From the human T2T-CHM13v2.0 reference genome, Homo sapiens, in assembly GCF_009914755.1 (NCBI RefSeq), contig NC_060930.1: a stretch of 64,000 bases of DNA; one strand, 5' to 3'. Shown piece after piece: positions 28,388-55,595 of this stretch. Positions within the stretch are counted from its first letter, which is position 1; every line of letters starts with the position of its first letter. Position numbers and translations under genes: made by a program. Below the pieces are notes generated by a model. The model was not told the origin of the DNA, searched no databases, and was given only the letters and a program-made list of their open reading frames with translations.

Positions 28388-28731
28388 TGTCTTAGTCCAT
28401 TTTGTGCTGCTATAAGAGAGCATACTTGAGACTGGGTAATTTATATTGAACAGAAATTTATTGGCTCACGATTCTGGAGGTTGGAAAGTCTGATATCAAG
28501 GTGCTGGCATCTGGCAAGGGCCTTCTGGATGTGTCTACATGGTGGAAGGCGGAAGGGCCAAGAGGTAAAATGTGGCTGAATTTGTGCTTCTATTATGGCA
28601 TGAATCCCATCCATGAAGGTGGAGGCCTCATGGCCTAATCATTTCTCACAGGCACCACCTTTTAATACTGTTACAATGGCAATTACATTTCAACATGAGC
28701 TTTGGAGGAGACAAAAATTCAAACCATAGCA
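28388..28731 (-). mobile_element. MST-family MaLR LTR inserted into a MIR
   Basis: TGTCTTAGTCCATTTTGTGCTGCTATAA...ATTCAAACCATAGCA; MIR pieces on both flanks. Confidence 0.8.
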
Positions 28732-36340: not shown

Positions 36341-38396
36341 CCCAAAAGGTGAAGTGTTGGTGAGGATGTGGAGAAAAGGGAACCCTTATTACACAATTAG
36401 TGGGAATGTAAATTAGTGCAGCCATTTTGGAAAATAGCCAAGGAAAATTTTTTTATTGAGTCAGATGATGTTACCTTACAGCAATAGCTTCCAAAGGGGA
36501 TGTCCTGAATAGTAGAACTTCTCTTTACATTTTCAAACCTCTTTTTACTTTCTGATTTTGAGTTTCATAATGAACATGTATCAATACAATAGCACACTAT
36601 GTATTTTATAAATGAACAAATATGGGAAAAATAAGATATGTTCACTTTCCTGGCTGACCCTAGTTAGTCTAAACTATCAGTTATAGGATCCATTTGTTCT
36701 AAATATTGAAGGCATTGTTGGGGGCAGTGGGGAGGGTGAATGATAGACGCAAATTCCTTGAAGGAATAGAAATGTGACTACTATGCTGAAAAGCAGGACC
36801 CATGGAGTATAAATAGAGTATTCACTGTGCTTTTACATTTGTTTCCCTGGAGGAAACGTAAAACAAATCTCAAGACTTTCTGGTCATTTCTAAGTCATAA
36901 ACGGCCACTAGTCACTAATTTATATAACCAGCCCAATGTAAATATCAAACGTGTGAGTTTCATTTCATCTCACAACTCCTCCCCTTTCCCAGTTCTGGCC
37001 CCATACAAGCCCGCTGCCTGCAGTGGGATGGAGGAAGATGGTTTCTTTTTCCTTCCCTCCCATTTATTTGTCTTTGTGCATCTTAAAGCCAGCCTGAATT
37101 TCTACTCCCTACAAGGTTGAAGTGGGTGGGTCAGGAGGTGGGGAGAGAGCTAAGGAACGTTGGCGTGAGTTGTTGTTGTGTTTGAGTCTGGAAGGTGTTG
37201 GGAGCTGCCCCCCCTCACTCAGGGCCTCATTTATGGGCTCTTCGGATAACCCCCATGCTCTAGCACTGGGATCTTGCCCTGTGGATCCCTCCATGCAGGT
37301 GGCACCACACCCTCTGGCTGGTTGTGATGGGCCTTCTCAGCTTTGAGAATTAGCAACACACTTCCTATTGAAGTCATCTGTCCCTGTGGGTAGCCCACTT
37401 GGGCTGGATGCAAACTGAACCTGCACTGATTCTCTCTTGCATGTGGCCCACATGAGCTCCATTTTCCTCCGCAAACTTTGGGTGCACAGCCCCACGACGA
37501 CACAGACAGCTTTTCTTGCGTGCCACCAAAGTGGTGGGCCAGAGTTCTCTTATCCTTAAGATTTTCAGGTGTCACCACGTCCACCAATTCTTGGCAGACA
37601 TGAATCAATACTTCCAAGGGTTTTGGTGAAGCCCTTTTCCCTGGGCTGCAGATGAGGGCAGCCATGTCCTGTCTCTTCCACCTGTTGTGGAAGGGGTTCA
37701 TGGCAAACATCTTCGAACATCCTCTAATTTCCCAATTCTTGATCCTTTCGTATGCTTGATGTGTGAGAGAGAAGAGAGAAGAGAGAAACGCTTCTTGCTG
37801 CTTTTTTTTTTTTTAATCCCACATGGTGACCTTAGACTTTACTTTGGAATGTGCCATTTAATATCTGGGGACCTCAGCCCAACACAGGGACTAAATAGCT
37901 CTGTTTTAACATTTTGTTTATATACACACATTCATTTGACCAAATGAACATGTTCCAGCTTTTTTAACCCTTGCCCAGCAAATCACTTAATTCAGTTAAT
38001 AAAAAGACTAAAATAATGAGGCCAACCTTATTGGCCACGAACATCTGTTGGGTATTCCTAAATTGATCCCTGAGTTAATCTCCACCTTTAAGGAGTTTAT
38101 AATTTTATTTGGCAAATTGATGTTATAATGAAATTCCTGGGCATGAAAAAAACCTAACTATGTAATGTTGGATAGTGTGAGTTTTCCCAAAAGTACCAGT
38201 ATAAGCAATAAATGCTATAACTGATCATGAATTGTTTACAGTGATTGAGTAGAATCATTGCATCTGGTCATGAATAGAAAGAGCACCTCCCAGACGGCTG
38301 GTCTGCTGCCAGGTGTGCAGTTTTAGGGGTCTCCACACTCATTCTATTCACATCTTTTGACTTTATCAGCTGTGTGGTGGATCTGTGGTTACAGGC

Positions 38397-38760
38397 TGAT
38401 GTGGTTTGGCTGTGACCTCGCTCAAATCTCATCTTGAATTGTAGCTCCCATAATTCCCACGTGTCATGGGAGGGATCCAGTCGGAGGTAATTGAATCACG
38501 GGGGCGGGTCTCTCCCGTGCTGTTCTCGTGGTAATGAATAAGTCTCACGAGATCTGATGGTTTTATAAATGGGAGTTCTCTTTCACGAGCTCTCTTGCCT
38601 GCCGCCATGTAAGAAGCGCCTTTGCTCTTCCTTTGTCTTCTGCCATGATTGTGAGGCCTTCCCAGCCATGTGGAACTGTGAGTCCATTAAACCTCTTTCC
38701 TTTATAAATTACCCAGTCTTGGATATGTCTTTATTAGCAGTGTGAAAATGGACTAATACA
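38397..38760 (+). mobile_element. THE1-family (ERVL-MaLR) solo LTR, full length
   Basis: Begins TGATGTGGTTTGGCTGTG...CAAATCTCATCTTGAATTGTAGCTCCCATAATTCCCACG, ends ...GGACTAATACA; 364 bp with TG...CA ends. TSD not clearly retained. Confidence 0.92.
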
Positions 38761-38930
38761 TGAGCCACATTGTTACAGAGTTTCTGAAGGTCATTAAGAG
38801 AAGTCCATGCTGTGGGCTGAGCTGGGACTCAAGAATCTCAAAGGAGAGCCAGTGCAATCAACACGAAGGGCCCATCTTGAACTCCTAAGGCAGGGCAGAG
38901 CTGGGTCTTATGGAGACATGTGGCTTTCAG
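38593..38930 (+). other. ESR1: Candidate ESR1 T1 (to 38677) and T2 (from 38779) untranslated exons
   Basis: TATAAAT 38564-38570; donor ACT|GTGAGT; acceptor TTACAG|AG; 101-nt intron; about 16 kb upstream. The TSS and T2 3' end (CAG|GTAATC at 38931) are inferred. Confidence 0.55.
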
Positions 38931-39666
38931 GTAATCCAGTGAGCACCTGTGTTTTCCTCCTATAATTCTTGAGGAATGGATATTGTTCTATATTTCAGAT
39001 AGTATAATAATAAATACCTGGAAAATACTGTATGACCCCAAACAACAGGTAAAATGTCAAAAAAAACCTTTTATCTACACAAAGTTAGACAACAAATTCA
39101 AATAATCTTATCCGTTTATTCATTCTCTTCCAATACAATCATGTATCATTTAATGATGGGGATGAGTTTGGAGGAAGGTGTTGTTAGGAGATTTTGTCAT
39201 GGTGCAAACATCATCAAGTATACTTATGCCAACCTCAGTGGTATAGCCTACTACACATCTAGGCTTGGATAGTACAGCCTGTTGCTCCTAGGCTATAAAC
39301 CTGTACAGCATGTTACTGTCCTGAATACTGCGGCAACTATAAAATAATGGTAAGTATTTGTATATCTAAACACACTTCAACATAGAAAAGGCACAGTGAA
39401 AATATGGTATAAGAGATAAAAAATGGTCCACCTGTACAAGGCACTTGCCAGAATGGAGCTTGCAGGACTGGAAGTTGCTCTGGGAGAGTCAGCGAATGGC
39501 TGATGAGTGAATGTGAAGGCCTAGGGCATTATTGTATGCTACTGTAAACTTTATAAACACTGTGCACTTAGGATACACTAAATTTATTAAAAATTTTTCT
39601 TTCTTCAATCAATAATAAGTGAACATTAGCTTACTGTATTTTTTTTTTTACTTTATAAACTTTAAT

Positions 39667-39956
39667 TTTTTTTTAGAGATAGGGTCTTGCTCTGTTGGCC
39701 AGGCTGGAGTGCAGTGGCACAATCATAGTTCACTACAACATTGAACTCCTAGGCTTAAGCAATCCTCACACCTCAGCCTCCTGGGTAGCTGGTACTGCAG
39801 ACGTACACTACTGCACCCAGCTAATTTTTAAATTTTTTGTAGCGACTGGGTTCTGCTATGTTGACCAGGCTGGTCTTGAACTCCTGACTCAAGCAATCCT
39901 CCTGCCTCAGCCTCCCAGCATGCTGGGATTATAGGTGTGAGCTACTGCACTTGGCC
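39667..39956 (-). mobile_element. AluJ
   Basis: Diverged reverse-complement dimer; TSD TAAACT(T/C)TAATTTTT. Confidence 0.9.
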
Positions 39957-40106
39957 TAAACTCTAATTTTTAAAATCTTCTTGACTGTTTTATAATAACA
40001 CTTAGTTTGAAACACAAACACATTGTACAGCTGTACAAAAATGTTTTCTTTCTTTACATCCTTATTCTATAAGCTTTTTTCTGTTTAAGTTTTTAAAAAT
40101 GTTTTA

Positions 40107-40451
<345 letters not shown>

Positions 40452-42423
40452 CTAGGCCTACCCAGGGTCAGGATCATCAATGTCACTGTCTTCCCCTTCC
40501 ACATCTTGTCCCACTGGAAAGTCCTCAGGGACAGTAACACCCCTGGAGCTGTCATCTCCTCTGATAATAATATGGGCTTCTGGAAGACCTCCAGAAGGAC
40601 CTGCCTCCTGCCTAATGCTGTTTTACAGGTAATATTTTTTTCTAGTAGAAGGAGTACACTAAAATAATGATAAAAACTGTAGTAAAGTAAATATATAAAT
40701 TAGTCATATAGTCATTTATTATCATAATCATTATGTACTGTACATAATTGTATTGCCAGACTTTTATACAACTGGTGGCACAATAGGTTTGCTTACACCA
40801 GCATCACCACACACGTGAGTAATGTGTTGTGCTGTGACATTAGGACAGCTACAATGTCAGGAGGCAATAGGAATTTTTCAGCTCCATTATAACCTTACAA
40901 GACCACTGTCATATCTGCAGTACAAAACATCATTATGTGGTGCATGACTATATTTACTGAGCACCAAATATGTGCCCAGGCAGTGTGCTAGGGGCTGGAA
41001 GTGACCTCGAAGTCTAGTAAAAAAACCACAACAGTAAAACAATATGTGTAATTCAAAGTGACATATCCTGTAATAGCTGGTTGCCTACCTGCTCCCCAGA
41101 GAGAAATTAAACCTGCTTGCTTAACTTATTAATTTTAAATTCATGTACTTGCAATATAAAAACATATTTTAAAACATATTAGGAGAATAGGATGTCTTCT
41201 GTAGTGATAGGCTATTTAATGTTCTCTTCACTGTGTTCTAAAAAAATCGTGATCGAGTGTAACAAAATGGGGAAGGGAGGGTTAGCATAAACTCTCCTTT
41301 GATGTCTATGCTGTGGATCAGAAAACTCATGAATATGTTAACAACTGGATTTTCTCCTAATATGAAAACAACTCTTTGGCTTCTTTTGCAAATGTGAAAA
41401 GTTAACCATAAATATAAGACCTTTTCTTTCCACTAAAACTAGGGCACAATCATTGTTTTCCTCTTATTGGAGTCCAAATGGGTTTCCATAATCTTCAGAT
41501 CTAGTAGTTGTATTTATCGATGACATAAATGGAAAGACTAAAAGATAAAGTTAAGAAAAATTCAGTGGTTTATGGCTTCAACTCTACTGATAATTTTGTA
41601 TATAAAGGGATCCTAAATTAGACTGTACACACATTTGCCATTTGAGTTCCAAGCATTTTAGCAATAGATCAAAAGATCTTAATGCCTGATAGTTGAAAGA
41701 TTACTTCCAAATTTTTTTTATTTTTGTGAAAGCCAAAGTCCTTTTCTCAACATGACAGTCACAATTTTGTCAACAATCTACCCGTTATTTACAAAGGTTT
41801 AAAATCTGATAATAGATATTTACTTGGACTATACAATGTCTCAGTGGGAGCAATAGATGGTTTACAATGGGTCTGAAAATGTTGCAAATAGTCAAAACTG
41901 GCATTGCAACAATTCATTTCCAAAAACACACTAGACTCGTGAGTTTTTGGTTTTTAAGTTTATATAGCTTGCTTCTGGTGTTAACGTTCTCCACACCTAA
42001 GGTGCCAACATGCATGGCTACTCTTTGTCCCCAGAGAAACATTGCTAATTTGTACCAAATTTCAATGATGTGTCAAGCAAACTGTCATTTTGGAATGATA
42101 GTAAGCACGCCTTCAACAACAGCTCTTTATTTCGTCCAAAACCTTTGGGCCACACAATTCTGACCTTTATCACACTCTCAGTACCTTTCATTCATTATTA
42201 GCTTGTGCTTCTGGGGCCCCGGGAATTGTCAACTATGGTCAAAATAATGGAGCAAAATAGCAAGAAGAACTTGCGTTTCCTATATCATTGCATTTAATCT
42301 TTGCAACAACTCTTTGAGGTGGAAATTGCCCCAATTTTATAGATTCAGCTTAAAGACCTTGATTTGTCCAAGATCACACAACCACTAGGAGGTATAATGT
42401 TCAAATAAAAATGTCTGAAAAGA

Positions 42424-42726
42424 GCTGGGTGTGGTGGGTCATGCCTGTAATCCCAGCACGTTGGGAGGCTGAGGTGGGGGGATCACCTGAGGTCAGGAGT
42501 TTGAAACCAGCCTGGGCAACATGGCGAAACCCCGCCTCTACTAAAAATACAAAAATTAGCTGGGTGTGGTGGTGCATACATGTAATCCCAGCTACTTGGG
42601 AGACTGAGGCACGAGAATTGAATGAACCCTGTGAGGCAGAGGTTGCAGTGAGCTGAAATCGCACCACTGCACTCCAGCCCAGGCGGCAGAGTGAGACTCC
42701 ATCTCAAAAAAAAAAAAAAAAAAAAA
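42424..42726 (+). mobile_element. AluS
   Basis: Full dimer with poly-A tail. Confidence 0.95.
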
Positions 42727-43085
42727 TCTGGAAAGATAGATTACTTGGCCTCAATCATAGTAAAAAAGTGTCAGTTAAAACTGCATGGAGAGATACTATT
42801 TTGAAAAGCATCAAAAAGTTCGAAGATCCATCATATTTGTAAGGCTATGGGAGTTTAAATTGTACAGGCGTTATGAAGGCATTTGGTTACATCTACCAAA
42901 ATTAACACCGCACATATTTACTCATGTGCAAATTGACTTATGTACAAATTTACTAATTGTAGCATTGTTGATAATTGTAAAATATTAGGAACACACCTAA
43001 TTGCCATTAATGGGGAACTGGTAAAATAAACTAGAATTCCTCTGTGCATGGAATACTATGCAGTCATCAAAAATGACGAAGATGT

Positions 43086-43430
<345 letters not shown>

Positions 43431-43814
43431 TTATTTAGTGAAATAGAAAGATATCCAAGATATGTTGCTAATAAAAACAAAAAAAAACACATGGCACAAA
43501 TAAGGTGCATGTTACTATCTGGGTCTTTTAAAAAGGGGTGTGGAAGAATGTGTGTGTGTGTTTTCTTCAATATGTGTAGAATATCTCTGGAAGGAAATTT
43601 AAAAACTGGCGACCTCAGCTGTCTCCAGAGAGGGAAAATTGGTGGGTTGCAGGCAGAGGTGAAAGATTTTCCCACTATGACTTTGAAAATATCTTTTCAA
43701 GTTTAAAGCACCAACTGCATTATATATCAAGAGTAAATAAAATACAATTTTAAAATGAAATGGCATTTGTAAAACACTTGATAGATGTTCAGTTAACAGC
43801 CATCAGGATTTATT

Positions 43815-43912
43815 AGTAATTGTGGTTTTTGCCATTAAAAGTAATTTTAAAAGTAATGGTTTTGCCATTAGTTTTAATGACAAAAACCACAATTAGTTTT
43901 GCACCAACCAAA
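43815..43912. mobile_element. MADE1 with internal duplication
   Basis: AGTAATTGTGGTTTTTGCCATT...AAAAACCACAATTAGTTTTGCACCAACC. Confidence 0.8.
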
Positions 43913-46719
43913 TACCTTACGCTTCTGGTGAGGGCTCAGAAGAGAGATCATAAGTAAAGAACACTAGAAAGGATGTTTAATATTATTTCCCTTTTTAAAA
44001 CTGGTGGTTGTCAAAGCAGTCTGAAGGAAAAGTCTCCAGAACTGGTGATCATGTTCACATAGCAGTAGTTTGGAGTCAACAGAAATCATCTTCACCATCA
44101 ACCTAGCTCCGAAAGAGGCCGAGCCAATCTAGTTCCCTTGGCCAACCACCTTCCTCCCAACCTATACGTTGGGGTGATCCACTACAAAGCTCTCAAGAGT
44201 ATACACAATGCTACTACAGTCATTGTGAGTGAGATCTGAAGGGAGCATAGGCTAGGACTCATGAGATTATAGTTCAGAGTTTCTACTGTAATTCCTTTCA
44301 GCAAAGTGAAGAGCATGTCACTGGGGTTACAAGTGTTACTGGCTACTTAGCTAGTGCTAGATTACCCAAAAAAGTAACCGGGTCTCATGGGCAGAGGTGG
44401 GAAAGTCTGTTAAGCACATAGTGAAGGATGAATCTGGGCTGATTGGAAAACATTTGTTTGAATGAATGTAGCATTTATTTCCAAGAATAAGCATGTCCAG
44501 ACTGATTGAGCAAGAGTTATATTTAGTTCAGTCGTTCTGATGTCCATTTTGAGAAAGCTAAACCAGCATGCCAGAAGGGGTCAAAGATCACATTTTGCAT
44601 GAAAGAAAAGCCAATGGAAATGGGACTGTTAGACTTAAACTTTTGGGTATTTTACACTAGGACTTAGAAAGGACTTTATTCCTTTTTATATTTTCTGTCT
44701 CTAGCATTGCAAGTAGCAACAGAGTGAATTTTTGGTATTTGGAATACTCTCTCCTCATTTTTCCTTTGGGAAAATCATTAGCCTATTTGATTTGACTGCT
44801 GTTGAATATGTTCCATGACATCCATAAGTCTACCTTCAGGCATTGCTTGTGCTTGTTTATTACATATGATTAATTGCTTACATAAGAACAATGATGATCC
44901 CTGCAGGGGGAGGAGGGATGTGAAGAACAACTTACTTAGGCATTCCAGGGGCTAACAAGGGATGGTTTGATACAGCTCATTCTTGTTTTGAATCTTCATG
45001 CCTCTTGAGAAAGAAAGGAGCAGAATATGCTTTGCATGGCGCTATGTCCTCCCAGGTCCTATGTTTTCTTTTTTGTATTTTATCAGTTCTCTACGTAAGG
45101 ATTTTCTCAGTTTAATATAATTTCCATTTTTAAAATTCAAATACCTACATATGAGGTGGGAAAGGAAATTAATCAGATGCATTCCTATAAACTGCAGACT
45201 TAAATTAAGACCTTGAGCAAACTGGCATTTTGATGACTTGAGGATTCAGTGGGTGGGACAGTTGTACATCTTGAACTCTGGGTACACTGCCGAAAGCGAG
45301 GCCTGAGAAGGCTGTGTTGAGGAAGGAGTGTCAGTGACTGAGCCTGTTGGAAAGGGAGGCTGAGAGAGATGAGGACACATACGTAAGGGAGAACACATTG
45401 GCTGGCCAGGTGTTTTTTTTTCTGCTGTGGGTTTTGATTAGAATTCTGGGTCTCATTAAGTGACCCATGTTGAATAGAGATTGGATAGGGCTGGCTTGGA
45501 AAGCCCTCAGTGAAGAGATGAACTCGACAGCATGATAAGGAAGTAGATGCAAATTCAGGACAGGAAATGGAGAAGGGCAGGGTGAGAAAAGGGAACAAAT
45601 TTACAATTTGTGCCATTAGCCATTTATTAGAATTTGGTATAAGAATTTGTGGAATTATTGTTTCCTTCTGGATTTATGGTACAAAAACCTACTGACAAGT
45701 GTCACTAAAAGTGATGTCTTTATTCAATTATCAACCAAAAGTTTTACACTAAATTCTTTTGAGTCTTTGAATGTTTATGTTATTTCCAATAATCTTTCCA
45801 GTTCTTTTAAAAGGCTGATTTTTAGGAAGGCTAGCACTTTTTGATCACAGAATAGTTTCCCCAATGAGTATGATAGCTTCAATATCTTTCAAATTAGATT
45901 CTTTTGGAAATTGAACTGTGTCAAATCAAATAAAACAAGTAGGGTTTTTTGCTGTTATTGTTGAAGGTATTATATTTGCAAGTTTGTACAATTTAGCAGA
46001 TATAGGAAAGGTCTAATTTTTTTCTTTAGCTAGAATGTTCAGTTCAAATTATACAGATATAAGCATGAGACCTAAATGAACTCTCTTCTGATGAGTAATG
46101 AATGGAAGGTAGATTACTCATTTCTTCATGTTCAAAAAACAAATTATGTCTCTGAACACAGTTGTTTCAATGTTTTTAACTTATGTTCTCAAGCTCTTCC
46201 CATTTCTTTATCAGTGATTTGGGAATGTGAAGGCAGTCTTGTTGTAGTTTCCAAAGATTTAGGCATTTTTGAGACTCTAAGAATAGTTCATTAAGCCACC
46301 AATTAGTCCCTTAATTTTATTTAAGCTGAGCAAGCAAGGCCCACACTAAAAGTCAGAAGAATGCGGCATCTACCCAGAGAGGCTGAGGGTGGGATAGAAA
46401 GAAGGAGGCACTCCAAGTTTGGAGACACAGATTCTATTCCAGTTCCTCAAGCTGCATGACCTTCAGCAAGTCTCCTGTGTTGTTCAGGACCCCAGTTTCT
46501 TTATAAGTGCAATGAAGAGTTTGGACTCAACAACTTATAAAGAAACATTCATTCTAATTGTCTATTGTGTGAAAAGAATGTGAGTTGTTCTAGAAAATAT
46601 GAATCTGCTCCCCAATTGTCCTCCAAGCTCTGGTTCTAAATTTCAGTTATTATAGTTACTTCTTTCGAGGTAAATCATTGAGGAAGTCAGTTAATGCAGA
46701 GATGATGTCTGGAAGGAGT

Positions 46720-47540
46720 TTACAAGTTCATTGTTCAAATAGTATTTGTTGGGGGCCAACTACAACTACACATCAGGGATTGTGCTCACATTGGACTAGT
46801 GTCTTTGGAAAACAGAGTCCTTGTGTGCCCTTTTTGAATTTACAGGCCAACTTGGGGAAGCAGAGAGACAAATAGGAAATCCAACAGCATGATAAGTAGT
46901 ATAATGAGAATGTTTAGGGAGATACGAGCATTTATAGGAGTAGCACTCAATAGGAAATCAAGGAAGGCTTCCTGGTGGCTATGATGTCTCAAGGGAGACT
47001 TGAAGCATGAGTAGGAGTATGTCAGATGAAAAGGGATGGGAGGAAGATTTCAGGTAGGGTAATTTGCATACGTGAATATTTAGACCCAGAGAAAGTCCAG
47101 AGGGACTGAGGAACTTAAAAGAAATCCAGTATGGGAGGAGCATAGTACCTGTTGGGGAGGGTGGGGACTCTTGATAAATGAGGATAGTAATTCAAGTTCT
47201 TTGGCTCTTGAGTTACTTTTGGACAAGTTGAGCTTCAAGTAGCTAGTACATAGGAGGAGCTTAATAAATATTTATTGAATGAATGAACATGTAAGTAAAA
47301 ATGTCTAATAGGTACCTGGCAAAGTGGACTTCCTAGTCAGGAAAGAGAGGTTGGTTGGAGATTTCTATTTTGAAATTTTCAATGTATATATGAAAGTAAA
47401 AACACAAGGAGTGGTTGTGATCATCCAGGAGAAGGTATGCAGAGGAGGGAAGAGGGTCTAGGGGCTGAATCCTGGGGTACCCACACCTGAGAGGAGGGAG
47501 AGGAAGAGGGGCTCTCAGAAGAGCCTGAGCAGGAAGGGCC
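46720..47540 (-). mobile_element. L2 fragments (approximate)
   Basis: TTCATTGTTCAAATAGTATTTGTTG start; CAAGGAAGGCTTCCTGG and GAATCCTGGGGTACCCACAC motifs. Confidence 0.55.
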
Positions 47541-47634
47541 ATTGTAATAGGACTAAACACTAAGCCCCTGAAGTCAGCTCTCTGGGGGCAGAGGTTTTTG
47601 TTCTGTTTATTTTGGGATGCCTGCTGTTGACCAG

Positions 47635-47925
47635 ATTATGCTCCCCTACCCACCCAAATTCACATATTGAAGCCCTAACACTCAATGTGACTGTATCTGG
47701 AGATAGGGTCTTTGGGAGGTAATTATGGTTAAATGATGTTTTAAGGCTGGGACCCTACTCTGATAGGACTGTGGCCTTATAAAAAGAGCTCTCTCTTTTT
47801 CTGTCCTCCTCCTTCTACCTCCTCCAGGACCCACCCCAACCCCACACTGAGAAAATAAATCGCTGTTGTTTAAATCACCCAGTCTATGGTATTTTGTTAC
47901 AGTAGCCTGAGCTGACCAAAACAGT
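47635..47925 (+). mobile_element. MLT1A-like LTR, internally deleted
   Basis: CCAAATTCACATATTGAAGCCCTAAC...AAAATAAATCGCTGTTGTTTAAATCACCCAGTCTATGGTATTTTGTTA. Confidence 0.7.
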
Positions 47926-48267
47926 TCTCCGCACTTAGAAATGGTCCTGGTAAATACAGCTAATCAATATTTTTTTGAGTGAATTGAATGAATGAGTCAT
48001 TCACTGGCATGCTTATAAATGCATTACTCCCTCCACAGTGTGATTGTCATTGAGCAGGTTGGGAGAAGGGAGGAGCTCTCGCAAACATGGAAGTCCTGGG
48101 TGCTTAGGGAGAATGGGAAGGTGCCGTGGTCACAAAATCGGAAGAAAGAGCTGAAAGGCTGAAAGGCTGAAAATGCTAAACTGCTCAAATCTCCTCTGTC
48201 TTTTTTTAAAAAAAATCATTTGGCTAGGCTGGCTCTGAAATTGGGGATGGTTCTTGGTTGATTATGT

Positions 48268-48268
<1 letters not shown>

Positions 48269-48300
<32 letters not shown>
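48269..48300. repeat. (GT)16 microsatellite
   Basis: 32 nt of pure GT about 6.6 kb upstream of promoter A; matches the known upstream ESR1 GT repeat. Confidence 0.95.
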
Positions 48301-48303
<3 letters not shown>

Positions 48304-49876
48304 GGCCCTTCTTAACATTAGATAGGACTATCTGAATCTAAGTGAATTTAGGCACAATCTAGATATTGCTCTTCATAGAGAAATAATACTCTAAGCTGGC
48401 AATGAAATTCCTCAAGTAAACAACAGATAAAGGGAAGGAGAGGGACACAGTGTAACAATAATTGGAATAATTGGAATTCTTGTATCACTCATGGCACTTA
48501 CAGTGAAAGTACTTTCTACATTGTCTTCTATTACATGCAACATAGGTACATTATATAAAAAGATCCTAAAATATTGTTAAAAGAAATTTTCCCAGAAAAT
48601 GTAAGATAAAAGTTACTAAATTCTATTAAGCTTGCAAGTTAAATCCAAATCATTCATTGACTCATAATCAAGAACAGTCATGCTGCCTGACAACCAAAAA
48701 ATTCAAACTGTCTTCATCAAGTCCTGGGTGGGAAGCCAGGAAATGGGATCTGAGATCACAGGCTTTGTGAGAGTCAGGGTCTTTGGCGTGATTCTTGGTC
48801 ACAAATCATGCATTTTTTTCCTTGGAGAGATAGTGGGAAAGAAAAGGCTGTTTAAAAACATGTTAAAGAATACTGATTCCATTTGACTTCTTGTTAATGT
48901 GTACCCTTGCAGACTTGGGTAAAACTTGATCATGTTAAAAGCCATTGTACTTAAAGATTCATGACTAGAGTGTTAGGACAATTCTGTGGCCTTGGGGGTC
49001 CCATTGCAGCAAGAAGAGTCTGACTGAGAAGAGGATAGCTCCGTCCTTTGATGCCTAGTAACCTGCATGCCCAGCACTTTGCTGGCTGGGCCATTGGTAG
49101 GAAATGCGGTACATGCACTTCAATCTGTAAGAGATCATGGTCCATAGAGATCATAGATTTATTTTGCCACCTGGCCCAGATGGTGATAGAAGTCAGGACA
49201 ATGGTTGCCTAGAGGGGTTGGGAGTTTATTAGAATGGGACACAAAGGGAAATTTCTGGGGTGATGGAAATACTCTATACTTTCATTGGGATGATTGTTAC
49301 ATGGACATATCCATCTGTCAAATTCATCAAATGGTATGCTTTAGATACATGTATTTCATTGTATATAAATTTTGCCTCAAGAAACAAAAACTCAAGGTCA
49401 GGTGAAAAAAGTCCAGGAGCTAATCAAAAACCCTTAAAATAAGTGACCAAACTATTTGTGAAAATGAGCAGAAACTTAAAGGGAAATTCTTTGTTATTTT
49501 TCCACATTAGAGGAAAATTGATGGTATCAGATAAATGCTCAAAAATAAGCTTCCAAACAGAGCATTTATAATCAGTACAATAATAAGTTTGAACACAGAC
49601 AAACCTTCATGTCTCAGAGTGAAGGAACCATTTCTAGTAGTATAAGCTATTACGGAGATAGTTCCACATTTATTTTCTTTCATGTTTCTTTTGGAGGAAT
49701 AATGTTTTTGTAAATGTAAAATGCTTTTAATGGAGCTAGAGAAGAAGCTATGTTTGGTCATAGTATTATCTGCTTGCGAACTAAAAATTCAGAGCTCTCT
49801 TGTGAATCATGCTGCCAAGAATTGCAGACTTAAGCCTCAAGATTGTACGAATTTAAATTTTGACTTTATGGCCTCA

Positions 49877-50226
<350 letters not shown>

Positions 50227-51127
50227 TGGTAGAATGTCACATGGAAAGTTAACTTTTAGAGATAGTAATCCAGACACCTATAATATTACATTGTCCTTTT
50301 AAGTATCTATATCAATAAATTAACCAACATTTGTTGACTTAACATGGCCAGGGACAGTGCTGGGTTCTCATAATTCCCAAGTAATTCTAGCCAGACCTTG
50401 TCCTCAAGGAGCTTATGAGCAGCATGAGGAGATAAAAAACAGATAAATAACTCTAATTCAGGAAGAATTTGATAAATGCATGATAACTACTACTAGAATT
50501 CAGAGGAGAGGAAATTTTCTTTGAATAGAGACTAAAGGAAGGAATAATGAATGTGGTAGCATTTGGGCTGGACCTATTACAAGAGGCATGCTTTCCCCTG
50601 ACAAGCCAAGAAAGTGGGGATTTAAGGTAGAAGAAAAGAAAAGCCTTGAGTTCTTGGAGTATTAAAATTTTGCTTGGCTGAAGCATAGGTTACAGTCGGA
50701 GGAGATGGACTAGGAAGGATCGTTATGGGCAGAGAGGAAGCCCTGAACTCATGGGGGAAGCTATGATTTGGGTTAAAGACAGAGCTGGGTCATGTCAAGA
50801 TGGATCCTGAAGCAGTAAAAAAAAATCCAAGAAAGTAAACAGGTTGCAGGGTTTAGGATGAAGTCCGGGAGGAAAGGGCAGAGTGGTCCTTAGGAGGCCG
50901 TTAGGACAGGTAAGGTAATGGGTCTCAAAGGGAGTGGCCGAAATGCAATGGAAAAAGAGAGATTGTAAAGCTAGAAGGCTTAGGAATTGCCTCTTGATTA
51001 GGTGTGGAAGGCAAGGGAAAATCAGCCCTCGAAGAAGACAGTGAGATTTTAATCTGGGTGGCTGGAGAGACAGTGATGCTGGGCACAGACACGGGGAAGT
51101 TGAGAGGAACACCATGTTTGAGAATGG

Positions 51128-51134
51128 TGACTCA
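51128..51134. promoter_or_regulatory. AP-1 site in the distal ESR1 enhancer (ER-EH0 region)
   Basis: Perfect TGACTCA about 3.78 kb upstream of promoter A, consistent with the remembered position of the AP-1-containing enhancer. Confidence 0.6.
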
Positions 51135-51139
51135 TATTT

Positions 51140-51243
51140 GAACAAGCCTGCAATGCCCAGCAGACCGCTGGAAAAGTGGGGCTGGAGACACATTCAACGG
51201 AGGAGCCAGATCAATCTTTACCCTTCTTCACCTGAGAGAGCCA
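51140..51243 (+). other. ESR1: ESR1 untranslated exon D (5' end approximate)
   Basis: CACATTCAACGGAGGAGCCAGATC leader; donor CCA|GTAAGT after 51243; about 3.7 kb upstream of promoter A. Confidence 0.7.
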
Positions 51244-52681
51244 GTAAGTCACGGCTGGAACGTGTGTGTCCAGCAGGAGAGGGTAGGGAGGGAAGCCAAG
51301 AGAGCTGGGAGCCCAAGAGTGAAGTTTTTGCCAAAGGCAGAAGAGGAAAGTCGGCGTAGCACAGTATACTTTCCCACCCATGCTCACCAAGCCCAGGGAC
51401 AAGGCTCACCAAGATGAGTTTGGAAGAGAATGCTGGAGAGAAAGTGGTTAAGAAAACTGCCTTTACTGAACTTCTTGGGCTAACTTTGATTGTAAGTCTC
51501 TGAACAATCAAAGCCTGTGAGGAGACAGCCAACCTTCTTATTCTTCCTATGTCAATAGTGAACAATTGCAGATCCCCTTTCCTTTCCTTCTCCTTTCCCC
51601 TGTTCCTCTCTCCTCCCTCCCTGAATACTCTTGCTTTTTTCTGGGACTGGTCTAGAGCATGGGTGGCCATTGTTGACCTACAGGAGGCACCACTGTCACC
51701 AACAAAGGGTAACAGTCTTTCTTTTCAATATTTATTTATATCCAGTATTTATTTTCAATACTGACTATGGAGAGAGCTCTCCTGTGCTCAAACACTGCAA
51801 TACTGGGGGTCTTTCAAAGCACAAAAACATATATTTGCATGATGGCATCATTAACATTTTTATGGCTTTCTATTTCTTTTTTGTACTGGTCTCAAGAGCC
51901 ACTCATAAATCTCTCAGTAACTGCATAGTGTCCCAGGGCCAGAGACCGGCCACTCCTGGCATTGTGATTAGAGTCATTTAATATCCAAGGTGGTGACTAA
52001 TGTCTGGCAACAAAGCCTCCATTGGGTGTCATGTGTCCTGGGACCCTGAGCGTGGGCACTCTAGGAGCACCTCAGTATTGCGTGTTAGTACTATGGCCGA
52101 GAGAATAGTTGAGAAAGTGGTCAAGAGGTGGATCCATGTGAACGCCACTGGGAAATGAGAGACCTCGTTCCCAATCACGGTCAGTGCAACTCGAAAGCCT
52201 AAAATCAGTTTAAAACAAAGGTATCTACCTTTATCTTATGTTCATATCCTAGGCTTTTAATAATACGTATTTTTCACATGTTTACAGAAAGCAGTCAACT
52301 GAGCTATTCATGGAAAGGTTTGTGGGTTTGGTTAACGAAGTGGAGGAGTATTACATTTCAGCTGGAAACACATCCCTAGAATGCCAAAACATTTATTCCA
52401 AAGTCTGGTTTCCTGGTGCAATCGGAGGCATGGCAATGCCTCTGTTCAGAGACTGGGGGCTAGGGCCAGTAAGGCATTTGATCCACATGTATCCCAGAAG
52501 GCTTTTATTGTTAAATTATATTCTTTCGGAAAAACCACCCATGTCCTATTTTGTAAACTTGATATCCATACACTTTTGACTGGCATTCTATTTTAGCCGT
52601 AAGACTATGATTCACAGCAAGCCTGTTTTTCCTCTTGCTTGGGGTGGCAGCAGAAAGCATAGGGTACTTTCCAGCCTCCAA

Positions 52682-52704
52682 GGGTAGGGGCAAAGGGGCT
52701 GGGG
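52682..52704 (+). other. G-quadruplex motif in promoter/exon C region
   Basis: GGGTAGGGGCAAAGGGGCTGGGG, four G-tracts. Confidence 0.75.
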
Positions 52705-52899
52705 TTTCTCCTCCCCAGTACAGCTTTCTCTGGCTGTGCCACACTGCTCCCTGTGAGCAGACAGCAAGTCTCCCCTCACTCCCCACTGCCATTCATCCAG
52801 CGCTGTGCAGTAGCCCAGCTGCGTGTCTGCCGGGAGGGGCTGCCAAGTGCCCTGCCTACTGGCTGCTTCCCGAATCCCTGCCATTCCACGCACAAACAC

Positions 52900-53041
52900 A
52901 TCCACACACTCTCTCTGCCTAGTTCACACACTGAGCCACTCGCACATGCGAGCACATTCCTTCCTTCCTTCTCACTCTCTCGGCCCTTGACTTCTACAAG
53001 CCCATGGAACATTTCTGGAAAGACGTTCTTGATCCAGCAGG
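52900..53041 (+). other. ESR1: ESR1 untranslated exon C (5' end approximate/variable)
   Basis: Recognised TCTCTCGGCCCTTGACTTCTACAAGCCCATGGAACATTTCTGG leader; donor CAGG|GTAGGC after 53041; about 2 kb upstream of promoter A. Confidence 0.8.
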
Positions 53042-53746
53042 GTAGGCTTGTTTTGATTTCTCTCTCTGTAGCTTTAGCATTTTGAGAAAGCAACTTACCT
53101 TTCTGGCTAGTGTCTGTATCCTAGCAGGGAGATGAGGATTGCTGTTCTCCATGGGGGTATGTGTGTGTCTCCTTTTTCTTTCAGGACTTGTAGGATTCTT
53201 TGTGCCATTTGCATATAATTTGGCAGGTTCACATTTTTTAAGAGCCCTATGAAGTGCTTTTTGCATGTGTTTTAAAAAGGCATTTGAAAATTGAAAGTGT
53301 GATTTATGGAAATTAAATCATCTGTAAAAAATTGCTTTGGAAAGTAATGATTGCTGGCCATAAAGGGAAATATCTGCGATGCACCTAATGTGTTTTTAAC
53401 CCTTTATTTGCTGACAATCTATAGTCATTAATGCTAAACTCGATTTTGGCTTCAGCTACATTTGCATATTGTCCAACAATGGTCTATTTTTGTAAGAATT
53501 AGATAAAATGTATACTTGATATAAAATAGTCAAAAATGTAACTCTTAGTAACAGTAAGCTTGGCATTTAGATAGACCATGAACACTTCGTCAGATACTCT
53601 GTTGGGTGTTTGGGATAGCAATTAAAACAAAGTATTGATAGTTGTATCAGAGTCTATTAGGCTGCAGCAAAGGAAGTTTATTCAAAAGTATAAACTATCC
53701 AAGATTATAGACGCATGATATACTTCACCTATTTTTTGTCTCCTTA

Positions 53747-53751
<5 letters not shown>

Positions 53752-53789
<38 letters not shown>
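53752..53789. repeat. (TA)19 promoter microsatellite, followed by imperfect (TG)n
   Basis: 38 nt of pure TA about 1.1-1.2 kb upstream of promoter A; the known polymorphic ESR1 TA repeat. Confidence 0.95.
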
Positions 53790-53797
<8 letters not shown>

Positions 53798-54017
53798 TGT
53801 GTGTGTGTATGTGCGTGTGCATGTTTAACTTTTAATTCAGTTAAAAACTTTTTTCTATTTGTTTTTCATCTGGATATTTGATTCTGCATATCCTAGCCCA
53901 AGTGAACCGAGAAGATCGAGTTGTAGGACTAAAGGATAGACATGCAGAAATGCATTTTAAAAATCTGTTAGCTGGACCAGACCGACAATGTAACATAATT
54001 GCCAAAGCTTTGGTTCG

Positions 54018-54490
54018 TGACCTGAGGTTATGTTTGGTATGAAAAGGTCACATTTTATATTCAGTTTTCTGAAGTTTTGGTTGCATAACCAACCTGTGGA
54101 AGGCATGAACACCCATGTGCGCCCTAACCAAAGGTTTTTCTGAATCATCCTTCACATGAGAATTCCTAATGGGACCAAGTACAGTACTGTGGTCCAACAT
54201 AAACACACAAGTCAGGCTGAGAGAATCTCAGAAGGTTGTGGAAGGGTCTATCTACTTTGGGAGCATTTTGCAGAGGAAGAAACTGAGGTCCTGGCAGGTT
54301 GCATTCTCCTGATGGCAAAATGCAGCTCTTCCTATATGTATACCCTGAATCTCCGCCCCCTTCCCCTCAGATGCCCCCTGTCAGTTCCCCCAGCTGCTAA
54401 ATATAGCTGTCTGTGGCTGGCTGCGTATGCAACCGCACACCCCATTCTATCTGCCCTATCTCGGTTACAGTGTAGTCCTCCCCAGGGTCA
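54018..54490. promoter_or_regulatory. Three ERE half-sites upstream of promoter A
   Basis: TGACCT 54018-54023, AGGTCA 54045-54050, GGGTCA 54485-54490; possible autoregulatory half-EREs. Confidence 0.45.
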
Positions 54491-54589
54491 TCCTATGTAC
54501 ACACTACGTATTTCTAGCCAACGAGGAGGGGGAATCAAACAGAAAGAGAGACAAACAGAGATATATCGGAGTCTGGCACGGGGCACATA

Positions 54590-55029: not shown

Positions 55030-55092
55030 ATGCGCTGCGTCGCCTCTAACCTCGGGCTGTGCTCTTTTTCCAGGTGGCCCGCCGGTTTCTGA
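55030..55092 (+). other. uORF of promoter-A transcript (20 aa, MRCVASNLGLCSFSRWPAGF)
   Basis: ATG 55030, TGA 55090-55092; same frame as the main ORF. Confidence 0.85.
55061..55074 (+). promoter_or_regulatory. ESR1: Common 3' splice acceptor used by upstream untranslated ESR1 exons
   Basis: GCTCTTTTTCCAG|GTGGCC; first exonic base 55074 is 70 nt upstream of the ATG, matching the known shared acceptor. Confidence 0.9.
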
Positions 55093-55143
55093 GCCTTCTG
55101 CCCTGCGGGGACACGGTCTGCACCCTGCCCGCGGCCACGGACC

Positions 55144-55595
55144 ATGACCATGACCCTCCACACCAAAGCATCCGGGATGGCCCTACTGCATCAGATCCAA
55201 GGGAACGAGCTGGAGCCCCTGAACCGTCCGCAGCTCAAGATCCCCCTGGAGCGGCCCCTGGGCGAGGTGTACCTGGACAGCAGCAAGCCCGCCGTGTACA
55301 ACTACCCCGAGGGCGCCGCCTACGAGTTCAACGCCGCGGCCGCCGCCAACGCGCAGGTCTACGGTCAGACCGGCCTCCCCTACGGCCCCGGGTCTGAGGC
55401 TGCGGCGTTCGGCTCCAACGGCCTGGGGGGTTTCCCCCCACTCAACAGCGTGTCTCCGAGCCCGCTGATGCTACTGCACCCGCCGCCGCAGCTGTCGCCT
55501 TTCCTGCAGCCCCACGGCCAGCAGGTGCCCTACTACCTGGAGAACGAGCCCAGCGGCTACACGGTGCGCGAGGCCGGCCCGCCGGCATTCTACAG
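55144..55595 (+). CDS. ESR1: Estrogen receptor alpha, first coding exon (c.1-452; A/B domain, AF-1, including S104/S106/S118)
   Basis: Translation [57 protein letters not shown]...PPAFYR matches the ERalpha N-terminus. Kozak ACCATG at the start; donor TACAG|GTACCC after 55595 gives 452 coding nt. The ORF-track continuation to 55962 is intronic. Confidence 0.99.

What the first reader, a model, noticed from the sequence alone, without database searches (positions are those of the whole stretch)
38397..38940. THE1 LTR appears to build a complete ESR1 promoter/exon module whose 101-nt intron deletes the LTR's own poly(A) signal
Seen: a sense-oriented full LTR with TATAAAT (38564-38570) and strong donor ACT|GTGAGT (GT 38678). 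The LTR poly(A) signal ATTAAA (38686-38691) lies just inside the would-be intron. A branch-point-like CTAAT comes from the LTR's terminal bases (A 38756), 22 nt before acceptor TTACAG (38778), giving an intron of exactly 101 nt. Further donors lie at 38931 (CAG|GTAATC) and 38939. Recalled, unverified: ESR1 has testis/epididymis exons T1/T2 about 16 kb upstream, separated by a roughly 100-nt intron. Inference: the T promoter is an exapted primate retroviral LTR, and splicing converts a self-terminating LTR transcript into an ESR1 leader.
Basis: partly seen in the sequence, partly recalled or inferred. Interest (0 to 1): 0.8.

Follow-up and report, generated by a model that had tools for sequence, protein, structure and literature searches.

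The report
ESR1 testis promoter is a THE1 LTR
An ancient retrovirus-like repeat (a solitary THE1 long terminal repeat) sitting 16 kb upstream of the oestrogen receptor gene appears to supply that gene's published testis and epididymis promoter, its first leader exon and the splice site that removes the repeat's own stop signal.

Summary
Window 38397-38760 is a 364-bp solitary LTR of a very high-copy family. It aligns end to end with three copies that print calls THE1B, at 82-84% identity, and it lacks the deletions that mark THE1A. There is no internal sequence and no viral gene. Its divergence gives about 34-41 Myr (49-61 Myr at a slower rate), and print says the family occurs only in simians.

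A review states that ESR1 exons T1 and T2 lie about 16 kb upstream of exon 1 and are separated by a 101-bp intron. The only good donor/acceptor pair 101 nt apart here is 38678/38778. RefSeq confirms the T2 donor at 38930 joined to 55074.

So the LTR supplies the promoter, exon T1, the donor and 83 of the 101 intron bases, including its ATTAAA signal. The acceptor and T2 are flanking DNA.

A donor placed just before the poly(A) signal is family heritage (about 70-90% of copies) and is already documented for THE1B-CSF1R. It is not peculiar to this copy.

New here: this copy holds 11 CpGs, all in the promoter half, against 0-8 in 56 other copies. That suggests long-term germline hypomethylation.

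Not checked directly: the T1 cDNA, the TSS, primate orthologues and Brand 2002.

The parts
38397..38760 (+). Solitary THE1-type (ERVL-MaLR) LTR, 364 bp, TG...CA ends, sense to ESR1. No internal region and no viral gene beside it.
   Evidence: 39 other genomic places match, nearly all over 1-364, at 86-90%. Identity to print-named THE1B copies at CRH, HEY1 and CSF1R is 83.9, 82.8 and 81.6%. Masked as repeat 38394-38764 with unmasked flanks. The flanks have no hits in 68 loci apart from downstream masked repeats.
38397..38595 (+). U3-like promoter part of the LTR. It holds an E-box-like CACGTG (38458-63), the MaLR DUX4-type 11-mer (38488-98), a GC box (38500-08) and TATAAAT (38564-70). It also holds 9 of the copy's 11 CpGs; the other two are at 38603 and 38617.
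   Evidence: Sequence. The 11-mer equals the 'MaLR' DUX4 motif tested in PMC4730607. TATAAA is shared by 27/29, 17/26 and 2/3 copies. The E-box and GC-box names are recalled consensus motifs, not tool results.
38596..38677 (+). Predicted exon T1 (82 nt). The 3' end is fixed by the donor; the 5' end is inferred.
   Evidence: The AFAP1-AS1 RefSeq start in a THE1A LTR maps to the homologous position, 38597. The PMC6558280 Fig 1a legend speaks of an 82-base 5' region of the THE1B transcript. PMC10735291 places the TSS upstream of LTR position 204. No direct cDNA or CAGE evidence was seen.
38678..38778 (+). T1-T2 intron, 101 nt. It consists of 83 nt of LTR plus 18 nt of flank. It contains the donor GTGAGT (38678-83), the LTR poly(A) signal ATTAAA (38686-91), a second TATAAAT (38703-09), CTAAT (38753-57) and the acceptor AG (38777-78).
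   Evidence: Coordinates. The 101 bp intron is stated in PMC8616513. It is the only good 101-nt GT-AG pair. The donor 9-mer is identical in 19/29, 20/26 and 2/3 copies, and ATTAAA in 24/29, 20/26 and 3/3.
38779..38930 (+). Exon T2 (152 nt), non-repeat flanking DNA. Its donor is CAG|GTAATC at 38931, and a further GT lies at 38939.
   Evidence: The RefSeq exon ends at 38930 and is joined to 55074. The region is unmasked. Sequence.
38733..38930 (+). RefSeq first exon of Gnomon model XM_054354480.1. It starts inside the 101-nt intron. It is either an alternative start or an intron-retaining partial model.
   Evidence: There is no AG before 38733, and TATAAAT lies 24 nt upstream.
55074..55595 (+). 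ESR1 exon 1 from the common acceptor used by all upstream leader exons. The coding part starts at 55144.
   Evidence: The acceptor lies 161 nt after the NM_000125.4 start at 54913. The review gives +163.

Best explanation
A THE1-type MaLR element, THE1B-like, inserted upstream of ESR1 in an early simian roughly 35-50 million years ago. It is now a solitary 364-bp LTR.

Its U3 part, including the TATA at 38564-70, acts as ESR1 promoter T. Transcription starts near 38596. The LTR's R region forms exon T1. The LTR's own inherited 5' splice site at 38678 lies 8 nt before its ATTAAA signal. That site is joined either to a weak acceptor 18 nt beyond the LTR, giving exon T2 (38779-38930), which then splices to 55074, or directly to the common ESR1 acceptor at 55074. 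Either route removes the LTR's poly(A) signal and yields a full-length ER-alpha mRNA with a uATG-rich leader in testis and epididymis.

Shown:
- The LTR, its family and its approximate age.
- All motifs.
- The match to the published 101-bp intron and 16-kb distance.
- The 38930^55074 junction.
- The family-wide nature of the donor/poly(A) layout.
- An exceptional CpG content in the promoter half.

Inferred:
- The exact TSS.
- That the LTR alone carries promoter activity.
- That unspliced transcripts would end at the LTR signal.
- Which factors drive it. DUX4 is a candidate because the exact MaLR DUX4 11-mer is kept.
- That the CpG excess reflects long-term germline hypomethylation.
For: Motifs and arithmetic.

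LTR reality and bounds.

Family:
- Full-length alignment to the CRH THE1B copy, with the paper's THE1B primer found inside it.
- Full-length alignment to the HEY1 and CSF1R THE1B copies. The CSF1R match is 357 bp, the same length as the hg38 interval printed in PMC5134097.
- Much lower identity to the print-named THE1A copy (73.7%). The extra bases in ours sit where PMC10735291 places THE1A deletions.

Age: the star-tree branch of this copy is 0.074-0.091, and 0.066-0.111 for others. That gives 34-41 Myr at 2.2e-9 per site per year. Print says THE1A-D occur only in simians (PMC10735291) and dates THE1B to about 50 Myr (PMC6166974).

T1/T2: PMC8616513 gives a 101 bp intron, about 16 kb upstream, and testis/epididymis expression. 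There is a unique good 101-nt pair. The distance is 16,317 bp. The RefSeq junction is 38930^55074.

Known mechanism in the family:
- The CSF1R and HEY1 promoter copies carry the same donor 9-mer, ATTAAA, TATA and 11-mer as ours. The CRH copy, judged an enhancer in print, has a changed TATA and 11-mer.

TSS: see the T1 entry in parts.

CpG:
- 11 in ours against 0-8 in the 58 rows (56 distinct copies), with 0 rows at or above 11.
- 6 of 8 decay-type sites are kept in positions 1-225, against 1.75 expected, P about 1e-3.
- There are 5 further CpGs where the family has CA or TG. Only 1 of 56 copies has that many.
- CpG o/e is 0.57 in the LTR against 0.11-0.28 in the flanks.
- There is no GC or weak-to-strong bias once CpG sites are masked.
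Against: - No T1/T2 cDNA, CAGE or RNA-seq data could be examined.
- Brand et al. 2002 and Kos et al. 2001 are not held, so T1's sequence and length are unknown to me.
- The only RefSeq model here starts at 38733, inside the proposed intron, and does not contain T1.
- The T2 acceptor is weak, at 7 of 14 pyrimidines.
- A 101-nt GT-AG pair is expected by chance about twice in this interval.
- There is no clean target-site duplication: CAGGC against TGAGC, 2 of 5.
- The U3 part has not evolved more slowly than in other copies, ratio 1.2. There is therefore no sign of purifying selection on the promoter as a whole.
- Only about 1% of DUX4-bound THE1B copies are activated (PMC3836709), and DUX4 does not explain expression in the epididymis.
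- THE1C or THE1D membership is not excluded. No print-verified C or D copy was compared.
- The comparison copies were picked by similarity to ours, so they are not a random sample.
Confidence: 0.85

Rival explanations
1. T1 and T2 map here, but transcription starts upstream of the LTR or is driven by non-LTR flanking elements. On this view the LTR is only an exonised piece that donates a splice donor, and is not the promoter.
For: No direct TSS evidence was seen. The U3 part shows no slower evolution than in other copies, ratio 1.2. Only a small share of THE1 copies are active promoters (PMC3836709).
Against: T1 is described as a first exon under its own promoter T (PMC8616513). There is an intact TATAAAT 26-32 nt before the position homologous to a RefSeq-annotated THE1 start. 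CpG retention and gain are confined to U3 and the start of T1. The upstream flank is CpG-poor, o/e 0.17-0.23.
Confidence: 0.07
2. The real transcript is the RefSeq model. On this view initiation is at 38733, downstream of the second TATAAAT in the LTR's 3' part, the exon runs unspliced to 38930, and the 101-nt coincidence with print is chance.
For: XM_054354480.1 starts at 38733, 24 nt after TATAAAT 38703-09. Chance gives about 2 GT-AG pairs of 101 nt in the interval. The T2 acceptor is weak.
Against: It is a Gnomon prediction whose 5' end may simply be incomplete. Print describes two exons with a 101 bp intron and a T1-to-exon-1 variant that skips T2, which this model cannot produce. No AG precedes 38733 and no other placement of a 101-nt intron fits the 38930 donor. 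It may well coexist as a minor or intron-retaining form. I rate that coexistence at about 0.4 and this model as the sole truth at 0.05.
Confidence: 0.05
3. The LTR is an inert solitary repeat, and the annotated exon and published T exons are rare transcriptional noise of no consequence for ESR1.
For: The family has tens of thousands of copies with the same motifs. The leader carries 3-6 upstream ATGs, which should depress translation. No functional data were seen here.
Against: Print reports predominant use of this promoter in testis and epididymis. This copy's CpG content is higher than in any of the 56 distinct copies compared, while its overall divergence is average at 0.075 against 0.078.
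Confidence: 0.03

Closest known systems
THE1B LTR promoter of CSF1R (Hodgkin lymphoma; Lamprecht 2010 as described in PMC5134097 and PMC11007075)
   Same: It is a solitary sense-oriented THE1B LTR a few kb upstream of the gene. It initiates transcription, contributes the first exon and contains the splice donor, and the full-length protein is unchanged. That copy has the same TATAAAT, donor 9-mer, ATTAAA and DUX4-type 11-mer as the ESR1 copy.
   Different: CSF1R use is pathological de-repression, whereas the ESR1 T promoter is reported in normal testis and epididymis. The CSF1R LTR exon splices into an L1-derived exon, whereas here it splices into unique flank 18 nt past the LTR. The CSF1R copy has 1-3 CpGs against 11 here (named set).
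DUX4-dependent THE1B-HEY1 and other MaLR promoters active in testis (PMC3836709)
   Same: A THE1B LTR tens of kb upstream starts a spliced chimeric transcript that is present in testis. The HEY1 copy shares the 11-mer, the donor and ATTAAA with ours.
   Different: DUX4 binding or dependence of the ESR1 copy was not tested. ESR1 does not occur in that paper's main text (listing), and its supplements are closed. Expression in the epididymis is not explained by DUX4.
THE1A LTR promoter of lncRNA AFAP1-AS1 (PMC5134097, PMC11007075)
   Same: The LTR holds the TSS about 193-207 nt from its 5' end. The RefSeq start maps to position 201 of the ESR1 LTR.
   Different: It belongs to a different subfamily: 73.7% identity, with THE1A deletions that ours lacks. 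It drives a non-coding RNA.
MaLR (MT, ORR1) LTR promoters with built-in splice donors in rodent oocytes, and suppression of a 5' LTR poly(A) site by a nearby 5' splice site in retroviruses (both recalled from memory; no paper read here)
   Same: The same logic applies. An LTR that carries a promoter, a poly(A) signal and a donor can only yield long transcripts if the donor wins over the signal.
   Different: These are recalled analogies only. Here the donor lies 8 nt upstream of the signal, so splicing physically removes it.

Membership tests
THE1 LTR (ERVL-MaLR) | About 350-370-bp unit with TG...CA ends, present as a very high-copy dispersed repeat matching over its full length | tested here: met
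   364 bp, TGAT...TACA. There were 10142 first-look candidates. Of the 40 scored, 39 are other places, nearly all over 1-364 at 86-90%. The first four bases are shared by 25/29 copies and the last four by 20/29.
THE1 LTR (ERVL-MaLR) | Sequence similarity to copies named THE1B in print | tested here: met
   Identity to the CRH, HEY1 and CSF1R copies is 83.9, 82.8 and 81.6% over the full length. The paper's THE1B primer lies inside the CRH copy. Mean K2P distance from ours to the three is 0.189, against 0.222 among the three.
THE1B rather than THE1A | Absence of the THE1A changes 226_235del and 303_312delinsTT (PMC10735291) | tested here: met
   Against the AFAP1-AS1 THE1A copy, ours has 6+4 extra bases after positions 221 and 229, and 6 after position 296. 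Identity is only 73.7%.
THE1B rather than THE1C or THE1D | Subfamily-diagnostic positions, or a RepeatMasker/Dfam call | not testable with these tools
   No repeat library is on hand. The LTR at the IL2RB start is 72% identical to ours, but its THE1D name is recalled, not seen in a paper.
THE1 LTR (ERVL-MaLR) | 5-bp target-site duplication | tested here: not met
   CAGGC before and TGAGC after, 2 of 5 identical. Decay, or an origin by recombination between different elements, could explain this.
THE1 LTR (ERVL-MaLR) | Present only in simians at the orthologous site | not testable with these tools
   No primate genomes are available. At family level, print says simians only (PMC10735291).
ESR1 promoter T with exons T1/T2 (Brand 2002, Kos 2001) | About 16 kb upstream of exon 1, with T1 and T2 separated by a 101 bp intron | tested here: met
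   PMC8616513 passage. The intron 38678-38778 is 101 nt and is the only good pair of that length. It lies 16,317 bp from the promoter A start.
ESR1 promoter T with exons T1/T2 (Brand 2002, Kos 2001) | Spliced to the common acceptor in exon 1 (+163) | tested here: met
   RefSeq joins 38930 to 55074, which is 161 nt after the NM_000125.4 start. This is within a base or two of the printed +163.
ESR1 promoter T with exons T1/T2 (Brand 2002, Kos 2001) | Identity with the published T1/T2 cDNA sequence | not testable with these tools
   The paper is not held, and no nucleotide database of human cDNAs is on hand.
Exapted LTR alternative promoter | Transcription start inside the sense-oriented LTR | tested here: inconclusive
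   There is only indirect support, from the TATA position and a homologous annotated start at 38597. The RefSeq 5' end is at 38733, which is still inside the LTR.
DUX4-responsive MaLR | Double-homeobox motif in the LTR | tested here: met
   Window 38488-98 equals the MaLR motif tested in PMC4730607 (2.4-fold in a reporter). It is kept in 16/29, 14/26 and 2/3 copies.
DUX4-responsive MaLR | DUX4 occupancy and DUX4-dependent transcription at this copy | not tested
   No ChIP or expression data are available here.

The most novel reading that the evidence does not exclude
The ESR1 copy is not merely one of thousands of THE1 LTRs that happens to be transcribed. On this reading its promoter half has been kept unmethylated in the germ line for tens of millions of years, retaining 6 of 8 ancestral CpGs and fixing 5 new ones, while its 3' half lost all 5. 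That would mark it as a long-standing germline-active promoter, possibly driven by DUX4 or an E-box factor. ER-alpha expression from this promoter in male germ cells, and perhaps cleavage-stage embryos, would then be a simian innovation that rodent models lack.
Probability: 0.3. Interest if true: 0.65.

Novelty: new member of a known kind. Interest (0 to 1): 0.5.

Why it matters
ESR1 promoter T and exons T1/T2 have been known since 2002, and LTR-derived alternative promoters with built-in donors are a well-described class. What seems to be missing from the papers I could search is the link between the two.

If the link holds, the testis/epididymis promoter of the human oestrogen receptor cannot be older than simians. 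Rodent models of oestrogen action in the male tract would then lack this layer of regulation. Its tissue pattern would be inherited from the regulatory logic of THE1 LTRs, which use DUX4, NF-kB, AP-1 and Sp1 sites according to print.

The CpG signature is a sequence-only marker that could be used to pick out the few germline-active copies among about 37,000-49,000 THE1 LTRs.

Tried and rejected
- Direct alignment of the T1/T2 cDNA was impossible. Brand et al. 2002 is not held, and no human cDNA collection is available.

- Orthologue presence or absence in other primates was impossible, because the genome collections hold bacteria and archaea plus this reference only.

- Subfamily naming beyond 'THE1B-like, not THE1A' was not possible. 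A THE1D comparator rests on recall only.

- Target-site duplication: none convincing, 2 of 5.

- Purifying selection on the promoter is not supported. The U3 branch ratio is 1.2. Only the 3' part, positions 226-364, is slower, with ratio 0.62 and bootstrap 5-95% range 0.39-0.89. This is single-locus and weak.

- GC-biased gene conversion as the cause of the CpG excess is rejected. GC content is not an outlier, with 13 of 56 copies at or above ours. With CpG sites masked, ours is if anything poorer in G/C, 849 against 1035.

- A younger age as the cause of the CpG excess is rejected. The overall branch is 0.075 against 0.078.

- A THE1 internal region next to the LTR is rejected.

- Print search for the ESR1-LTR link used six searches. 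No held main text makes the link.
  - Four held papers cite Brand 2002. I word-searched three of them. 'LTR' occurs 0 times in all three; 'retrovir' was searched in two and also occurs 0 times.
  - PMC12924553 mentions ESR1 8 times but THE1 0 times. I saw the listing only.
  - Supplementary tables of TE-promoter catalogues are closed and may list this locus.
  - Brand 2002 or Kos 2001 may themselves mention the repeat.

- Rows dropped before counts. From the second sample of 29 loci I dropped L066 (best hit not at the target), and L062 and L040 (partial copies). For the 56-copy set I also dropped L045 and L052, which are the same places as L008 and L003. The 26-copy counts still include those two.
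Full report
OBSERVATION

- TATAAAT at 38564-70.
- The donor ACT|GTGAGT, with GT at 38678-9.
- ATTAAA at 38686-91.
- CTAAT at 38753-7.
- The acceptor AG at 38777-8. The intron 38678-38778 is therefore exactly 101 nt.
- Donors at 38931 and 38939.

RefSeq's exon for this place is 38733-38930. It belongs to one Gnomon model, XM_054354480.1, which joins 38930 to the common ESR1 acceptor at 55074. The T2 donor and its junction therefore have independent support. The model's 5' end, however, lies inside the proposed intron, 24 nt after a second TATAAAT at 38703-09.

IS IT AN LTR, AND OF WHAT FAMILY?

The reference masks 38394-38581 and 38586-38764 as repeat, and the flanks are unmasked. A search of the same genome with 38397-38760 found 10142 first-look candidates. 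All 40 scored places matched. The 39 other than the window itself cover essentially the whole query at 86-90% identity. This fixes the unit at 364 bp with TG...CA ends.

To name it without a repeat library, I located copies that papers call by name:
- The only match within 10 kb upstream of CRH contains the 'THE1B-specific' primer printed in PMC6166974. It is 83.9% identical to ours over the full length.
- The copy about 47 kb upstream of HEY1 (THE1B in PMC3836709, which says about 40 kb) is 82.8% identical.
- The copy upstream of CSF1R is 81.6% identical. It is 357 bp long, as is the THE1B interval printed in PMC5134097.

Ours is as close to these three (mean K2P 0.189) as they are to each other (0.222).

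The copy at the AFAP1-AS1 start is 353 bp and is named THE1A in PMC5134097 and PMC11007075. It is only 73.7% identical to ours. Ours carries extra bases exactly where PMC10735291 places the THE1A-specific deletions 226_235del and 303_312delinsTT.

The element is therefore a THE1 LTR of the THE1B type. THE1C and THE1D are not excluded.

The flanks contain no THE1 internal sequence, so it is a solitary LTR with no viral gene. No clean target-site duplication is left, with 2 of 5 bases matching.

AGE

I made no consensus. I used a star-tree estimate instead: the mean distance from ours to other copies, minus half the mean distance among those copies.

| Sample | Branch of this copy | Branch of others |
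|---|---|---|
| 29 best full-length matches | 0.074 | 0.066 |
| 26 copies chosen on a 61-bp piece, measured outside it | 0.091 | 0.102 |
| 3 print-named copies | 0.078 | 0.111 |

At 2.2e-9 substitutions per site per year this gives 34-41 Myr. At 1.5e-9 it gives 49-61 Myr. The rates are assumptions from general knowledge.

Print agrees:
- THE1A-D occur only in simians (PMC10735291).
- THE1B entered about 50 Myr ago (PMC6166974).
- THE1B is found in Old and New World primates (PMC5134097).

Orthologous presence of this particular copy in other primates could not be tested.

LINK TO THE PUBLISHED T PROMOTER

[quoted passage not shown] It says transcripts are T1-T2-exon 1 or T1-exon 1, spliced to the common acceptor. 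It also says promoter T is used predominantly in testis and epididymis.

In this sequence, donors between 38300 and 38830 give only two GT...AG pairs 101 nt apart, which is about the chance number. Only 38678/38778 has a real donor, matching 7 of 9 consensus positions. That intron sits directly before the exon whose 3' end RefSeq splices to 55074. The predicted start is 16,317 bp from the promoter A start.

I therefore take T1 to be the LTR-derived exon ending at 38677, and T2 to be 38779-38930. The original papers (Brand 2002, Kos 2001) are not held, so the cDNA itself was not compared.

WHAT THE LTR CONTRIBUTES, AND WHAT IS FAMILY HERITAGE

Shares of other copies identical to ours at each feature, in the three samples (29 copies, 26 copies, 3 copies):

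| Feature | 29 best matches | 26 picked on a 61-bp piece | 3 named |
|---|---|---|---|
| Donor 9-mer | 19/29 | 20/26 | 2/3 |
| Donor GT | 26/29 | 22/26 | 3/3 |
| ATTAAA | 24/29 | 20/26 | 3/3 |
| Second TATAAAT | 25/29 | 21/26 | 2/3 |
| CTAAT | 23/29 | 21/26 | 2/3 |
| TATAAA at the first TATA | 27/29 | 17/26 | 2/3 |

A donor placed 8 nt before the poly(A) signal is thus a standing property of THE1 LTRs. It is not an adaptation of this locus. PMC5134097 already describes the CSF1R THE1B LTR as initiating transcription and containing the splice donor.

The two documented promoter copies, CSF1R and HEY1, share the TATA, the donor 9-mer, ATTAAA and the DUX4-type 11-mer with ours. The CRH copy, judged an enhancer rather than a promoter in PMC6166974, has a changed TATA and 11-mer.

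Three things are specific to the ESR1 locus. The first is the weak acceptor 18 nt beyond the LTR, with 7 of 14 pyrimidines against 12 of 14 at the common acceptor. The second is exon T2. The third is T2's donor. All three are in non-repeat DNA. The weak acceptor fits the published skipping of T2 and the intron-retaining look of the RefSeq model.

WHERE TRANSCRIPTION PROBABLY STARTS

- The RefSeq start of AFAP1-AS1 in its THE1A LTR maps to position 201 of our LTR, which is window 38597.
- PMC11007075 puts 193 bases of that LTR upstream of the start.
- PMC10735291 places the THE1 start upstream of position 204.
- A figure legend in PMC6558280 speaks of the 82-base 5' region of the THE1B transcript. 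The span 38596-38677 is 82 nt.

This places the start 26-32 nt after the TATAAAT. It is inference by homology, not a measurement at this locus.

With that start, the T1-T2-exon 1 leader has 6 upstream ATGs in 304 nt, and the T1-exon 1 leader has 3 in 152 nt.

A NEW SEQUENCE SIGNATURE

The ESR1 copy has 11 CpGs, all at LTR positions 23-221, that is, in U3 and the first 22 nt of T1. In one search, none of the 58 rows compared (56 distinct copies) reaches 11:

| Sample | Range | Mean |
|---|---|---|
| 29 best matches | 0-8 | 3.1 |
| 26 picked on a 61-bp piece | 1-8 | 3.9 |
| 3 named | 1-3 | 2.0 |

Further points:
- Thirteen dinucleotide columns show the two-way decay pattern CG/TG/CA among the 56 distinct copies. 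Ours keeps 6 of them. Others have a mean of 2.2 and a maximum of 5, and 0 of 56 reach 6.
- Within positions 1-225 ours keeps 6 of 8, against 1.75 expected, P about 1e-3. Within positions 226-364 it keeps 0 of 5.
- Five further CpGs stand where nearly all other copies have CA, TG or another pair. Only 1 of 56 copies has that many 'extra' CpGs.
- CpG o/e is 0.57 in the LTR against 0.11-0.28 in the flanks.

This is not explained by youth. The overall branch is 0.075 against 0.078. Nor is it explained by a general weak-to-strong bias. GC content is not an outlier, and once CpG sites are masked ours has fewer strong bases than its partners, 849 against 1035.

The comparison copies were picked for similarity to ours, which should if anything favour shared CpGs.

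The simplest reading is that the promoter half of this copy has been spared germline methylation for a long time. That is what one expects of a promoter active or occupied in germ cells. It is an inference and needs methylome data.

Against a simple 'conserved promoter' reading, U3 as a whole has changed as fast as in other copies, ratio 1.2. Only the 3' part is slower, ratio 0.62 with range 0.39-0.89.

POSSIBLE DRIVERS

Window 38488-98 is identical to the 'MaLR' DUX4 motif that PMC4730607 tested, with 2.4-fold reporter activation.

PMC3836709 reports three things:
- DUX4, which is expressed in testis, binds about 30% of THE1B and THE1C copies.
- It activates about 1% of the bound THE1B copies.
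- Such LTR-initiated transcripts occur in healthy testis.

PMC5134097 and PMC11007075 report Sp1, AP-1 and NF-kB sites in THE1 LTRs. Ours has a GC box and an E-box-like CACGTG. Those motif names are recalled. None of this was tested at this copy, and DUX4 would not explain use in the epididymis.

NOVELTY

The exons and the promoter are known, and so is the kind of mechanism.

Six full-text searches found no held paper whose main text says that ESR1 promoter T is an LTR. I word-searched three of the four held papers that cite Brand 2002. 'LTR' occurs 0 times in all three; 'retrovir' was searched in two of them and also occurs 0 times. The fourth could not be opened.

Supplements are closed, and the two primary papers are not held, so prior notice cannot be excluded.

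I file this as a new member of a known kind. Interest is moderate. It implies that the human testis/epididymis ESR1 promoter is a simian acquisition. It also offers a sequence-only marker, CpG retention in U3, for germline-active THE1 copies.

LIMITS

- No RNA, methylation, ChIP or primate data were available.

Noticed in passing
window 38458-38463 (LTR positions 62-67): The CpG inside an E-box-like CACGTG is kept in 31 of 56 other THE1 copies. The other 12 decay-type CpG sites are kept in only 2-18 of 56. Part of this may be bias, because one sample was picked on positions 24-84.
   Followed up: partly
window 38703-38733: A second TATAAAT (38703-09) is shared by 25/29 and 21/26 copies. It lies 24 nt before the 5' end of RefSeq model XM_054354480.1 at 38733, inside the T1-T2 intron. 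This could be a minor start or an incomplete, intron-retaining model.
   Followed up: partly
window 38596-38677 + 38779-38930 + 55074-55143: The predicted T leaders are rich in upstream ATGs. There are 6 in the 304-nt T1-T2 leader and 3 in the 152-nt T1 leader. The first is an ATG followed directly by a stop, and several upstream reading frames overlap the main start. This suggests low translational efficiency.
   Followed up: partly
window 38622-38760 (LTR positions 226-364): The 3' part of this copy, comprising the second half of T1, the donor, the poly(A) signal and the LTR part of the intron, has a shorter branch than in other copies: 0.051 against 0.081, ratio 0.62, bootstrap 5-95% 0.39-0.89. 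U3 does not show this, ratio 1.2.
   Followed up: partly
L031:2360-2725, L035:9028-9384, L037:6683-7047: Two copies are documented as promoters, CSF1R and HEY1. Both keep the TATA, the DUX4-type 11-mer and the donor 9-mer. The CRH copy, described in print as an enhancer, has a changed TATA and 11-mer.
   Followed up: partly
window 28388-28469, minus strand: An 84-nt match at 75% identity to LTR positions 282-364. It is probably a fragment of another, older MaLR-type LTR.
   Followed up: no
window 4698-4811: An internal non-coding ESR1 exon is used by a single Gnomon model (XM_054354475.1), between the far-upstream leader exons and 55074.
   Followed up: no
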